In this document: in pieces, positions 11,218 to 17,069 of the stretch
Layout: the number at the start of each line of letters is the position of its first letter
Numbering within the stretch: position 1 is the first letter of the stretch
NCBI RefSeq assembly: GCF_003704095.1
Contig: NW_020844573.1
Location: forward strand, 62,001-126,000
Direction of reading: 5' to 3'
Length of the DNA: 64,000 nucleotides
Origin: Pocillopora damicornis
Lineage: Eukaryota
Program-made: the position numbers and the translations under genes
The notes under the pieces: model-generated
The model's database searches: none
The model's input: only the letters and a program-made list of their open reading frames with translations
What the model was told of the DNA's origin: nothing

Positions 11218-14200
11218 TTAATTATTTCTCCGCGGGTTTTTCCTTTTATCCTTCCCTCTTCCCGTTCTTGAACGAGATCTGAATAACCTTTTGGACGTGC
11301 ATTTGATCTTAAACTGTGTGCAGTCGGACACGTGGGTAAATTTCTCGTTTTGGCCAACACAAATGCGAGTACAACCATCAAGGATACCACAAGATGAATT
11401 GCTGTTGGCATTCTGTCTTTTTATCTTCTTCATTTGCCTCCTGAGCAGGGAGCCCAACAAAGCCCCACCTTGTCTTCTCTTTCGAGGGCGGCCAATCGTT
11501 CGAAGGGTTGTATTCCTGTGGGATGTTTTGGGTTTCAAAGTTCCAGTGTCTGTGGAGGATGAATTTTTGGTGGCTGATGAAGATAAACAAAAATATTAGT
11601 GTAAAATGGGTCAATTTATTCCAAGGCAATGCTTTGATATGACTAACAACATATTTAAAAATTTCCGTGGCATCTTGAGAACGTGTCGGTCACGATGTTT
11701 AATTTCATTTTCTCCGTCAAATTTCAGTTAGAGCGCGGGTCTAATAATCTGATTCTTTTTTAAAGACGTAGAAAAAACATCTTCAAAAAACATTGAAACA
11801 TTAATGAAGTTGTATCTTTGTGTTTAACTAAACATTAATCAAAATATAACACGAGTTTTTTCGAACAAAAGAAGGAAGATATGAAAAATGATGTCGTAAT
11901 CTATAGCTATTCATAAGTTATAAAACATTTCAACTCCCACCCCCTCCCCCACCATTTGCCTCATTCCGTGAATCAGCTGACACATTCTAGCATGACTTAA
12001 TGACAAATCAAGAGAGGATTAACGTCAGAGACCCATTTAGTAGAGGTGTTCCTAAGAGACTAGAGAGTTTGATTCTGAAAAAAACTTAAGGACGATTATG
12101 TTATAGATGTCTGGACTCTTTCTCTGAGACTTATCCTATCACGCTGAATTTAATACAACACTTACTCCCATTTTTCCCAGTTCCTCCCTCCTCGACAGTA
12201 TCCCCAGGTATGAAGCGATATACATTGGCGCCATGGCAAAGGCTGCTCACGGCCTCGTCCCAGGTGTTGTCCGTGTGAGGCTTGACATGGGCATTGTTAC
12301 GACGAGTCTGCTGAAAACGGAACAGACTATATTCAACAAAAGCTTTGATAATGAGAGAAGCAGGTGGAGTTACATAGCGAGTGTGTGTTTATACCTCAAC
12401 ATAGAAGACCATTTTTATTAGTACTAGTTTTGGCATTCCAAACAGTTTAGACAATAAATCACCCGCCTTTGACACGAAGTGGGAATCTAAAGGAGAAGTA
12501 TACCCAAGATATATTAGTAAAAGAAAAAACTTGTCATCGAGTAGAATCTCTCCTTCGCAAGCCCCAAGGACCTCAAACAATTTTTCTTGGTAAATCTACT
12601 TGTCAAGTCATCTACTCAAGCAAAAGTCTATCTTTTTCGTCTTTCCAAGTCCATGTAAAATACTTTTGTCCAGAACCAACGCGGCAATTGTTGGGGAAAA
12701 TCTCAACTTGTTTTTATTTACAATACCAAGGGAAATTTGTAGGTCACATAAAAAAATAGGCTAAAACATGTCTTAATCATGGTCTTCGTATTCGCTCACG
12801 ATTTGCTTCTTTTTTTTGGAGGAGGGGGGGTGGGGGGGGGGCACTCATGACTCTATTCCGGTACACATTTGTTCCTAGACAGCTGTAGGCGGATGAAAAC
12901 AAATTGAGCTCGATTTTGCAGAATTATGAATTGTCCAAAGCTGCAAATCAAAGATCGATTCAATTCGTCGTCGACTTCCGCAAAGGTTTTCACCTTGTTG
13001 GGGACTAGACGTAATTTAAGTTAAGATTTCTGGCATTAAAAACTCCAAAGTCAGACACATTTCGCAATTTTTTTTCGTCTCAGTGTAGTAAAGATATTTT
13101 GGGAAATTCTTAAATGATTGAGTTCGCTACTATGTAAAAATAGTACTTCCCCGAAAGTTTAAGTAAAGATTTATCACGCTCACAACACAAAATTGGCCTC
13201 GCAAAATATTCAATCTCCTAGTATTTTCACAGATCGCTCAATAAGGATTGCACATGGCAAAGTTGTCGTTTGTAAGAAAATTCTAAGGGGTTTGTGCCTA
13301 AGCATTGGCACAAACCGATAACGAACAAGAAGGACATAATTTTAAGATATTGTAAGGAGGTATGATTGTGCCAGCGAATTACGCAAAGGAAATGGTGGGT
13401 AATTTGAGTAAGGATCTGCATTTGACGTAAAGGACGTCGAGCCCCGCACGTATCAAACGCCCCGCTGACCCTAAATGTCAAGTGGAGAGCAACAATCTAA
13501 GATAACTCAAAGCGAGCAGCATTTCATTTAAGTGTACTTGAAAGATTTGAGACCTCACCAAAGGTCTCTGTTTTGACCTTGGAATGTTGGACATGGGTAT
13601 TTTCAAGAGACTTAAACGTGGAAAAGTGTATCAAGTACCATTTCTTTTGTGAACTTAAGTAGGTTATCATAAAGTAATCTTAAGCTCAGATGTAAAAGCA
13701 CTCCATGGAGTCAGTGAGCACAAAACTTGTGTTAAACGTCATAAGAAAATGCAGATGTAATGTCAATCTTACCCAAAATCTAAAAAAGTAATTTTTCTTT
13801 CCCATCTTCCTGTTTGTCTTTATCTGTCTGTCTGTCTACACCAAAGAAGTCACATACCCACTATAACATGATAATTTAAAACCACTTACCGCATAGCTTT
13901 CCCTCACAGGCTCAATTCGTCGCTTAGTCTAGAAAATAAAGAAGAAATCTGTTTATTGTGCTTTTCCTGAACTCGGGGACACCTGGGCAAAAAAATTGTG
14001 TAAGCCCTGCACGCACTTTGTCGATGCTATTTCTTTGAAGTGTCACTAAAACATGGTTTCCTGTCCATTTTGTCTTTTCAACAACCACCAGCCCAGTGAA
14101 AACTAAATGCAACTTTTAATTCTTCCTTTGCATTCTCCAACAACCCACAAATCTGATAGGTGGGATTTGGACATGTTCTTTTGCTTCAAAAACTGACCAA

Positions 14201-17069
14201 ATAAAAGCTACTATGAAGGAAAAGAGATGTCTCCAATGGCTATCCTCAATTGTTAAAATGGGTATTTCCTCCAAATTAATACTTTCATTTGATCAGTCAA
14301 CAAGGGCGGGAAAGTATATGCGGTATTCTTGGTATGGTAAAAAAGAGACTCACATGTATCTAATGTAAGGACTGTATTGATCACCGGAAGCAGTAAAAAT
14401 TCTAAAGTACTTTCAACTGATTTTATCCTTAGGTATTTCTAGCATCAAAAAATACGTTTTTCCAACCAGTTACGGTCAGGATATTTTCTGTAGTAGCGGT
14501 TTGTAATAAGCTTAACTTTCAGACAAAATAATGCCGCCTTTTTGCTGTAAATTGAATTAATACGAGTAATCCATCCTCAAAATCCCCTAATATCCTTTAA
14601 TGAAACGCTTATGACAAGCACGAAAAAAACGCTGAAAATGATGAGGATATGAAGATACATGACCATAGATCCAAGGAGACATTGGCTTAAATTGGAAAAA
14701 GTTCCATTTTATCTTATTTTTTTTTCACAGTAAACCTTGCCAAAAATAGCTTTTTTTCTAAAGTCGGCTGTTTTCGGATCACTTTAACTGGATTACGGTA
14801 TCCTCCAAACTTAATAGACTTGGAAGACTGTCAAGATGTTTTTTTTTTAAAGAGAATTAGGAACGCTGAACTTTGATCTCACAAGACCTCCACTCTCTAG
14901 TTCTAAAGTGGAATAATGTTCTTTTCTTTTTCCTCTTTTTCTTCTTCCCGAGCGTCCTCAACCTGGCATGCGGTTCAACACGTAATTCCAAACTAAATTT
15001 CCGGCTAAAATAACTCTGAGAGCATCAAAAGGCACGGTTCCGTTTAGTGATCAAAGTGTGCGCTACTCACGTCAGCATAAAAAAGGAAGTTGTTTTGAGA
15101 AGCTGCTTATCACTTACTGTACAAACGATCTATCACGACCAAAGAAACAATTGGGGTACATTGTGGTTCCAGTTTGACCCAATGAAACTTTTATCTTCTG
15201 CCAAACTATGGAAGACAAAAAGTACCAGCTTATATACTTGCTTTTGAGATAATTTGTAATCGGTCAATCAAAAAAAAATCGGTTGTTTTTGGTCAAGAAC
15301 TTATTTGAAAGCAAGACGGCTAACGCGATATGATTTCGACCGAACACGCCATGACAGTCTTAACAGCTGTCATTAACCGATTCACAGATAAGGCGATTGC
15401 ACGAGGAAATAGGAACTCACTCCGAGAAATTTCGGTGCACTAACACCACAGACAACCATAAAAATTTGTGAAATGATTTTGAGAATATCTCCTAAAACAG
15501 CAGTCGATTCCATTAGAACACGAGCAATCGTAAAAGAGTCAATTAACTGAGACATCTAACCCATCTTTGACAAGGCCACGTCAAGACAACCATTTATCGA
15601 TCTGTCAACGCAATCCGCAAGTTAATTAAGTTCTCAGTTGGGCGCTTTAAAAGTTGTCGAAAAATCACTATTATAAAAGTACTTTGTCTGCACTTTCTTT
15701 AGAGAGTACGTATCTATGTACTGTAGCACTAAATTCACCTAATAATAGCTTTTGACAAGGAATGTAGTGAGGCAGTAATTATAGGTCAACATGTCAAGAA
15801 CGAAGGAATCTGTATAACTTTCCAAACGACAAGTTGATCCCATTATAAATCATTTCTCGGCATCAACTTATTTTCCCATGAACGCGATCGAGAGTTTTCG
15901 TCCTGACCTTAACTATAAGGAAACATCTTGGTGTGTAGAAAGAACAAAATAAATTAATTGTTACCTGGAAAGTTCTTTGATGATTTACGAGACCTGTAAA
16001 AAATATTCACAGCCCCATCTTTCATGTCTAAACTCAGATGTTTTATTCCACGTGACTTTCAAATGAAAGAACATTGTATAGAGTTTAAATTGTCCCCTTT
16101 TTTTTCCTTGTTTTGGCTGCCGATGTCGATAAACCTTTCAGCTGTGTAACGTGCTGTCAAAAGTGTTCTGGATCTTTTGCCATTCGAGACATCATTATCA
16201 AAGAATCTCCATTAGTTGGGCTGAATCATTTTCTCGTATACAGGAAACTTTAACTTATGGATAAAATCAGTTTTTGTGGTTTCAGCAGAAATGAGCCATT
16301 TCCCCTAGTCTCGCAGAATTTCATGGAGGATCGACAAACAAATCTCCTTACTCGTCTGAAAATGAGTTTCAAAAGATCCTAGAAATGGCGTCCTCTTATG
16401 TTTGCCTACGCTGCAACTTTCTCCAAAGCCTATACTTATCAAAAATACAATAAACATTTTGTACAACATGGGAAGATGGACCTTCATTACGTGTCATAGT
16501 TCCGGCAGCTACGCAAGCTAGTGACCCTGAAGCTTCGTGAACCAGGAGCACAACCTATGTAACAGCAAAAACGAAAAAAAAACAACAAAATTTTTAAGTG
16601 CAGCCATATTACCTGCAACCCATGCAAGAGTAGACTCCATACTGTACAGTCGTTCAGACTTTCTTGTTTGAGGTCGGGCGTATCCTCGACAAAACAAACT
16701 GGAATTCTTGAACATGTTTCTACCTTCAAGCATGCGAAAGCCTGCAAAAAGAAAAGACACATGCCAAACTCAAAGCTCTTTTCAGAAATGAACATTACTA
16801 AATCTCCGCTTTATAGTGTAATCAAAACCAAGGCCGTTTTCTACAACTTTGAAGTGTAATTGTACCTTGCTAAGGTCGACAAATGCTTGGAGTTCCAAAA
16901 TGTTCTTTCTTGAGTTCTGCCCCGATTTACGGCACAGCTCCTGAAGAGTGACTTGCTTATGATCGTCTTTTCTTCCTTTTGATCCTTTTCTTTTCGATTC
17001 CACGGATGAAATGAGGAATAACAACAGCAGTACGAAAGATAAAGTGACAATAGCTCGCCAGAGTGCCAT
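11218..17069 (-). CDS. Uncharacterised secreted precursor protein, about 311 aa, 7 exons
   Basis: Exons 17069-16866, 16741-16643, 16554-16491, 15993-15965, 13928-13890, 12310-12166 and 11573-11218 have GT-AG boundaries and join in frame (936 nt). Signal peptide MALWRAIVTLSFVLLLLFLISSVES; RPRKRR and KIKR sites; 5-Cys C-terminal segment. The internal exons are less certain than the ends. Confidence 0.7.

What the first reader, a model, noticed from the sequence alone, without database searches (positions are those of the whole stretch)
11218..17069. Orphan secreted precursor with basic processing sites and a Cys-rich C-terminal peptide
Seen: seven phase-compatible exons encode a signal peptide, a basic stretch (KRKGSKGRK), a Cys-containing core (7 Cys, ELC through LCHG), a Ser/Thr/Gly linker with N-glycosylation sequons (NGT, NSS, NTT), then RPRKRR and KIKR, then QNANSNSSCGILDGCTRICVGQNEKFTHVSDCTQFKIKCTS, then KR and a very basic tail. 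Established: R-x-K/R-R is a furin/proprotein convertase site, and basic tails often bind heparan sulfate. Inference: this is a processed signalling ligand, toxin or antimicrobial precursor. Cleavage would release a peptide of about 41 aa with N-terminal Gln (possible pyroglutamate) and 5 Cys (odd number, so possibly disulfide-linked to a partner). The gene is flanked by about 10 kb and 6 kb without recognisable genes in an otherwise compact region, as often seen for regulated ligands. VVLLVHEASGSLACV faintly recalls an FGF/beta-trefoil strand pair, but that is weak. I do not recognise the family.
Basis: partly seen in the sequence, partly recalled or inferred. Interest (0 to 1): 0.7.

Follow-up and report, generated by a model that had tools for sequence, protein, structure and literature searches.

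The report
Hidden coral BRICHOS peptide precursor
This spliced, five-exon coral gene, conserved from stony corals to sea anemones and labelled 'uncharacterized' in the databases, likely encodes a divergent BRICHOS folding-helper domain followed by a cysteine hairpin with a strongly positive tail, which is predicted to be cut off and would likely act outside the cell as a matrix-bound signal or, less likely, an antibiotic peptide.

Summary
The gene is real but has five exons, not seven. All 7 RNA-type runs laid (6 studies) show the same four joints, one of which skips both extra exons, including the 'FGF-like' one. The 289-aa product is identical to Pocillopora damicornis XP_027039343.1. Orthologues occur in stony corals and two anemones, named only 'uncharacterized' or 'hypothetical'.

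A furin motif lies in the linker in 12 of 14 homologues. The cargo is an amphipathic cationic helix, a near-neutral conserved five-Cys hairpin and a polybasic tail. Function is untested.

Verdict: a new divergent variant of a known precursor family; interest 0.35.

The parts
16866..17069 (-). Coding exon 1 (aa 1-68): predicted signal peptide (1-25), basic stretch, Cys46 helix, first core strand with invariant Asp65. Ends phase 0 at Asp+3.
   Evidence: joint; Asp invariant in 13 of 13; signal peptide inferred from hydropathy and a conserved V/S/L-E-[STAQ] then basic pattern; no SignalP run
16613..16741 (-). Coding exon 2 (aa 69-111): two strands with Cys72, Cys78, Cys84 (first BRICHOS Cys, codon 16696-16694) and helix 1 with Cys100. 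Ends phase 0.
13890..13928 (-). Coding exon 3 (aa 112-124, 39 nt): extra strand RRIEP. The intron after it is not shared with the canonical BRICHOS or OAF genes examined.
   Evidence: same exon in another coral locus, L039
12166..12307 (-). Coding exon 4 (aa 125-172): helix 2 with Cys148 (codon 12238-12236), last core strand, start of the Ser/Thr linker. Ends phase 1. A tandem acceptor at 12310 gives the annotated 290-aa isoform.
11218..11573 (-). Coding exon 5 (aa 172-289 and stop): linker with N-glycosylation sequons, furin motif, cargo
11473..11484 (-). RKRR (202-205), predicted main furin/proprotein-convertase site
   Evidence: cleavage not shown
11416..11472 (-). Cationic amphipathic helix (206-224) ending in KIKR, a possible second cut site
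   Evidence: helix 209-225 in the low-confidence full-length model; hydrophobic moment 0.82-1.06 in 13 of 13 coral sequences, at most 10 of 1000 shuffles reach it (sequences are related); no such GG-helix in the 2 anemones
11296..11391 (-). Five-Cys hairpin (233-264), net charge -1 to +1 in corals, best-conserved segment (mean 68% identity to P0001 against 57% for the core)
   Evidence: strands 239-243 and 259-263 in the model at pLDDT about 55
11221..11295 (-). Polybasic tail, net +10 to +19 in 14 of 14 homologues, low sequence identity (mean 35%)
16491..16554 (-).
   Evidence: skipped by the 16613-13928 joint in 7 of 7 RNA-type runs; no insertion in homologues
15965..15993 (-). Second rejected exon (my reconstruction of the seven-exon model): intron sequence
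15352..15686 (.). Conserved block in intron 2, with frame-breaking indels between species; likely regulatory
   Evidence: 67% identity over 347 nt to L038 (E 8e-22), also in L039
17218..17874 (.). Conserved upstream blocks (17218-17357 and 17578-17874); likely 5' UTR or promoter
   Evidence: 84% over 141 nt and 70% over 309 nt to L038
8821..11217 (-). Likely long 3' UTR covered by RNA contigs
   Evidence: X6 contig 8821-10924, X10 and X12 contigs; contigs cannot show the true end or strand

Best explanation
The gene is spliced into a 289-aa protein that likely is a secreted BRICHOS pre-pro-protein: its predicted chaperone domain (residues about 58-158) would keep the beta-hairpin cargo from aggregating in the secretory pathway, a furin-like enzyme would cut after RKRR (often again after KIKR), and the released cysteine hairpin, likely held on heparan sulfate or other acidic matrix by its polybasic tail, would act as a short-range extracellular ligand in the manner of OAF or chondromodulin. 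Shown here: splicing, sequence, conservation, single copy and shared introns. Predicted: the fold. Inferred from family knowledge: chaperoning, cleavage, disulfides, matrix binding and signalling. My odds are about 0.85 for BRICHOS homology, 0.7 for cleavage at the first site and 0.45 for the whole statement. The odd Cys count implies one free or interchain cysteine, so the product may be a covalent dimer or stay tied to the pro-domain (inferred).

For: Language-model features: for the core of P0006, the best named cluster is BRICHOS at 0.89 with 176 shared features, and 10 of the 10 best hits with a family share that family or clan.

Residues: Asp65, Cys84 and Cys148 are invariant in 13 of 13.

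Introns: phase 0 at Asp+3 also occurs in 10 of 11 canonical BRICHOS loci examined and in OAF. Phase 0 after helix 1 and phase 1 in the linker also occur in L001 and OAF. Rough chance of all three coinciding is 2e-5.

For a ligand-like cargo: single copy in the genome, conserved to Nematostella and Actinia, hairpin neutral and more conserved than the core, tail conserved in charge rather than sequence, conserved non-coding blocks. The genome holds a separate expanded set of canonical BRICHOS genes, and two last exons seen there look like cationic hairpins.
Confidence: 0.45

Rival explanations
1. Same BRICHOS precursor, but the cargo is a host-defence peptide. The released 75-90-aa cationic product, or its 19-aa amphipathic helix after a second cut, damages microbial membranes, as nicomicin does in polychaetes.
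For: Net charge +13 to +21 and an amphipathic helix directly after the furin site in 13 of 13 coral sequences. Nicomicin is a BRICHOS cargo made of an amphipathic helix plus a disulfide loop (PMC6265681 passages). Two other Pocillopora BRICHOS proteins were predicted to be antimicrobial (PMC12960093 passages).
Against: The best-conserved part is neutral. The helix is not present in the two anemone orthologues. The gene is single copy. The core is mostly not acidic (net -2 to +17), unlike the anionic proregion described for worm antimicrobial precursors.
Confidence: 0.28
2. A BRICHOS protein that stays largely in one piece, uncut or held together by a disulfide after cutting, and acts as an extracellular chaperone or as a mucus or skeletal-matrix component anchored by two basic ends.
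For: Odd Cys total in 12 of 12 counted. Strict furin motif absent in 2 of 14. 4-7 sequons in the linker in 14 of 14. Basic clusters at both ends.
Against: A furin motif is kept in 12 of 14 in an otherwise poorly conserved linker (30% identity). In corals the pro-part has an even Cys number (6; 12 of 13, the other being a fragment), so a latch would leave another Cys free.
Confidence: 0.12
3. Not BRICHOS: a hexacoral-specific secreted protein whose small alpha/beta domain only resembles BRICHOS.
Against: Fold rank, language-model features, the Asp/Cys/Cys triad, three intron positions and the overall architecture all point to the same family.
Confidence: 0.15

Closest known systems
BRICHOS superfamily (Pfam PF04089; proSP-C BRICHOS 2yad, 8ox2, 8ovi)
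   Same: Hydrophobic N-terminus, roughly 100-aa domain with the same predicted element order, Asp and two Cys, convertase motif, C-terminal Cys-rich strand-forming cargo, three shared intron positions with coral members.
   Different: Undetected by Pfam. A short Cys-bearing helix is predicted where others have the first strands. Three extra core Cys (46, 72, 78; plus 100 in corals). One extra intron. Long Ser/Thr linker and polybasic tail.
OAF (Out at first; PF14941/PF22873; PMC9714404)
   Same: Signal peptide, single conserved gene, long Cys-rich hairpin cargo. Coral OAF has similar exon sizes (70/42/57 codons against 68/43/13+47), with signal peptide and Asp in one exon.
   Different: A true OAF gene exists elsewhere in this genome. 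No significant sequence similarity. Different Cys spacing, and an odd number (5 or 7).
Chondromodulin-I / tenomodulin (PMC11173128)
   Same: BRICHOS domain, furin site, and a released part with a hydrophilic segment and a conserved Cys-rich domain acting in extracellular matrix.
   Different: Those are vertebrate type II membrane precursors with 8 Cys and the glycosylated segment after the cut. Here most sequons lie before the cut and the tail is polybasic. No sequence comparison with them was made.
Polychaete BRICHOS antimicrobial peptides (nicomicin, arenicin, alvinellacin) and predicted coral ones (CAH3125467, XP_058945786)
   Same: Signal peptide, BRICHOS domain, basic cut site, cationic cargo; helix plus disulfide loop as in nicomicin.
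   Different: Cargo more than twice as long as nicomicin (33 aa), hairpin neutral, pro-domain not acidic, gene single copy. The coral proteins of PMC12960093 are canonical paralogues, not this gene.

Membership tests
BRICHOS superfamily | N-terminal signal peptide or transmembrane helix | tested here: met
   Hydropathy up to 2.9 in the first 25 residues; conserved across homologues; no SignalP run
BRICHOS superfamily | Conserved Asp at the end of the second strand | tested here: met
   Asp65 invariant in 13 of 13, at the end of the first modelled strand; maps to proSP-C D105 by alignment range only
BRICHOS superfamily | Two conserved Cys, on strand 4 and helix 2 | tested here: met
   Cys84 and Cys148 invariant and on those elements in the model; spacing Asp-Cys 19 and Cys-Cys 64 against 16 and 59 in ITM2A
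BRICHOS superfamily | Disulfide bond between those two Cys | not testable with these tools
   No coordinates or bond list returned
BRICHOS superfamily | BRICHOS fold | tested here: inconclusive
BRICHOS superfamily | Detectable sequence similarity (PF04089 or profile-profile) | tested here: inconclusive
   0 of 14 and 0 of 13 match Pfam BRICHOS; hhalign with shallow profiles not significant; OAF, an accepted member, needed structure and HHpred
BRICHOS superfamily | Proprotein-convertase motif after the domain | tested here: met
   R-x-K/R-R in 12 of 14; cleavage itself not shown
BRICHOS superfamily | C-terminal beta-hairpin cargo with conserved Cys | tested here: inconclusive
   Five Cys invariant in 14 of 14; two strands predicted at pLDDT about 55 only
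BRICHOS superfamily | Shared intron positions with accepted members (used here as homology evidence, not a published criterion) | tested here: met
   Asp+3 phase 0 in 10 of 11 canonical loci and OAF; post-helix phase 0 and linker phase 1 in L001 and OAF
BRICHOS superfamily | Chaperone activity on its cargo | not testable with these tools
   Needs an aggregation assay
OAF subfamily | Match to OAF_N/OAF_C and the eight-Cys cargo | tested here: not met
   No Pfam match; 5 or 7 cargo Cys; true OAF elsewhere in the genome
BRICHOS antimicrobial peptides | Cationic cargo | tested here: met
   +13 to +21 after the first cut, but the hairpin itself is -1 to +1
BRICHOS antimicrobial peptides | Antimicrobial activity | not testable with these tools
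   Needs assays
FGF / beta-trefoil | Twelve-strand trefoil including the VVLLVHEASGSLACV pair | tested here: not met
   The motif is spliced out; the modelled core has five strands and several helices

The most novel reading that the evidence does not exclude
An unrecognised hexacoral BRICHOS subfamily with a cut-down chaperone domain, in which a disulfide-pinned helix replaces the first strands, makes two products from one precursor: a coral-specific amphipathic antibiotic helix and an ancient cystine-hairpin ligand that dimerises or stays latched through its unpaired cysteine and is held on matrix by a polybasic tail. It would be a cnidarian counterpart of chondromodulin/OAF-type signalling.
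Probability: 0.15. Interest if true: 0.62.

Novelty: new variant of a known kind. Interest (0 to 1): 0.35.

Why it matters
It gives a likely family and a testable mechanism to a single-copy gene kept from Nematostella to reef corals that the databases call uncharacterized. It suggests that domain scans of coral BRICHOS proteins miss divergent members (one ScanProsite survey counted 238 sequences from 15 species and linked the domain to heat and pH stress; PMC5299404 passages). A natural BRICHOS domain lacking the N-terminal strands would help define the minimal chaperone. The cargo is short enough to make and assay, and a Nematostella orthologue allows knockouts. The impact is moderate: BRICHOS precursors are already known in corals, and no function is shown.

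Tried and rejected
- Seven-exon model and FGF/beta-trefoil reading: rejected.
- First impressions by eye (divergent FGF, four-helix cytokine, stanniocalcin from the AFACL..TC motif; all recalled): dropped once the RNA-based protein and the mixed alpha/beta model were in hand.
- Pfam scans of exons, full proteins and cores: nothing relevant.
- PDB sequence searches: 0 hits for A1; 2 weak unrelated hits for A5.
- Atlas structure searches: no TM above 0.45.
- hhalign against home-made coral BRICHOS and OAF profiles: not significant.
- Second genomic match C3101 (E 0.41): looks like chance.
- Range beyond hexacorals: no hit with a non-hexacoral name among 29 proteins at E<=0.001 in 1.84 billion representatives (single-sequence search) or 21.
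- Literature: 0 papers for six gene or protein ids. The ids and two peptide motifs are absent from 5 held supplements of PMC12960093, one of them cut. BRICHOS plus coral, cnidaria or Nematostella listings showed nothing that I could tie to this gene; I opened only some of the listed papers. bioRxiv supplements are closed and subscription papers are not searched.
- The proSP-C structure paper was not held.
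Full report
1. Observation. The motifs lie on the minus strand between 17069 and 11218. 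RNA contigs fix the structure: four GT-AG joints appear in 4 of 4 runs from 3 studies and in 3 of 3 further RNA-type runs from 3 other studies, but not in X15, a run of unknown kind with flat depth. The exons are 17069-16866, 16741-16613, 13928-13890, 12307-12166 and 11573-11218, an open frame of 289 codons. The joint 16613-13928 skips the two further exons of the seven-exon model, which would give 321 aa with 7 core Cys. The tool could not exclude letters between the two sides of that joint. However, XP_027039343.1 (Pocillopora damicornis LOC113667681; pdam_00002968 is the 290-aa form) equals the five-exon product exactly, and another coral locus, L039, has the same five exons. The FGF-like motif is therefore intron sequence.

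2. Relatives. Homology searches returned 21 and 29 proteins, many of them fragments or intron read-throughs. I aligned 14 (13 full-length and the N-terminally truncated P0012) and left out the rest. Named members are from Pocillopora, Acropora, Montipora, Orbicella, Desmophyllum, Oculina, Actinia and Nematostella, all uncharacterized, hypothetical or unnamed. The gene is single copy: 4 of 5 genome matches are its own exons and the fifth has E 0.41. Mean identity to P0001 is 57% in the core, 30% in the linker, 68% in the Cys hairpin and 35% in the tail.

4. Gene structure as independent evidence. This genome has a canonical BRICHOS gene (L001), about ten further canonical loci and an OAF gene. 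In 10 of 11 canonical loci examined, an exon ends three residues after the Asp with a phase-0 donor, as exon 1 does here (VDLSK, then GT). OAF does the same. The phase-0 intron after helix 1 and the phase-1 intron in the linker are shared with L001 and OAF. A rough chance estimate for the three together is 2e-5; it assumes the Asp assignment and ignores phase bias. Against this, profile comparisons are not significant: 8 of 100 shuffles for canonical BRICHOS and 5 of 60 for OAF. I put BRICHOS homology at about 0.85.

5. Processing and cargo. R-x-K/R-R lies in the linker in 12 of 14 homologues; a KR/RR pair lies shortly before the hairpin in 10 of 14, followed by Gln in 5 of 14. KR/RR directly after the hairpin occurs in 4 of 14 (tails). 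The first cut would release 75-90 residues of net charge +13 to +21. These comprise an amphipathic helix (13 of 13 coral sequences, not the two anemones), a hairpin with C-x5-C-x3-C-x12-C-x6-C that is neutral in corals, and a tail of +10 to +19. Anemones add two Cys to the hairpin and have a linker Cys while lacking Cys100. The total after the signal peptide stays odd (12 of 12 counted), so one Cys must be free or interchain. No cleavage, bond or binding was shown here.

6. Mechanism. Best reading (0.45): the domain chaperones the hairpin, a convertase frees it, the basic tail holds it on acidic matrix, and it acts as a local ligand, like OAF or chondromodulin (PMC11173128, passages). This rests on single copy, deep conservation, a neutral conserved hairpin, and conserved non-coding blocks upstream and in intron 2. 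Main rival (0.28): a defence peptide like nicomicin (PMC6265681, passages); alvinellacin shows that a conserved cargo can be an antibiotic (PMC5431198, passages). Lesser rivals: an uncut or latched matrix chaperone (0.12) and a non-BRICHOS orphan (0.15). That basic tails bind heparan sulfate is general knowledge, not tested.

7. Novelty. BRICHOS proteins are known in corals (PMC5299404, passages; PMC12960093, passages and supplement searches), but those were found by domain scans, and the one sequence I could see is a canonical paralogue. I found no paper naming this gene (listings 28, 29, 89), within the limits of the library. PMC10745061 (one passage) added nothing on cnidarians. Earlier notes of this scan hold nothing on this sequence or place; a search for the word BRICHOS returned 7 notes from other genomes, used only as ideas. 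It differs from described members in the missing N-terminal strands, the extra core cysteines, the odd-cysteine cargo and the polybasic tail. It fails the OAF and FGF tests and is not shown to be antimicrobial.

8. Verdict. Real gene, wrong exon model, right about a processed secreted precursor, probably wrong about being an orphan. New variant of a known kind; interest 0.35.

Noticed in passing
window 2315-4780, minus strand (coding 3017-2921 and 2514-2315): Spliced, transcribed 98-aa secreted precursor: hydrophobic N-terminus, KR site, then a 56-aa peptide with six Cys (C-x5-C-x5-C-x21-C-x7-CC) that recalls a beta-defensin-like pattern (recalled, not tested). No Pfam hit for the two genomic frames scanned and no PDB sequence hit.
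   Followed up: partly
window 15352-15686, 17218-17357, 17578-17874; also 20436-20507 and 25475-25626: Blocks conserved with other coral loci L038 and L039 (67-86% identity); the first three are likely regulatory, the last two were not examined.
   Followed up: partly
window 15205: Minor alternative acceptor joined to exon 2 in one run (depth 10 against 853); it gives a stop after four codons.
   Followed up: yes
window 8050-8302: About 250-bp element with many loose ends in all four runs and absent from one contig of X15: likely a polymorphic small mobile element.
   Followed up: no
G000 C87, C246, C576, C730, C1800, C2915, C3958 (L014-L034): Expanded set of canonical BRICHOS genes, several in tandem pairs, with very different Cys-rich last exons; L028 and L033 end in Arg/Trp-rich hairpin-like peptides that look like antimicrobial candidates.
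   Followed up: partly
G000 C3096 (L035): OAF gene with the same three intron positions and phases as canonical BRICHOS genes, independent support for the published OAF-BRICHOS homology.
   Followed up: partly
window 23500-26000, 30700-37200, 41300-46700 (all minus), 47643-49871 (plus): Neighbours: EBP/EXPERA-family gene, ankyrin-repeat gene (ZDHHC17-like by recall), SET-domain gene (SUV4-20-like by recall), and an intronless RING/B-box/filamin/NHL (TRIM) gene followed by a partial NHL-like copy at about 50000-50500.
   Followed up: no
window 54054-55034, minus strand: 326-codon open frame with no Pfam hit; possibly transposon-derived.
   Followed up: no
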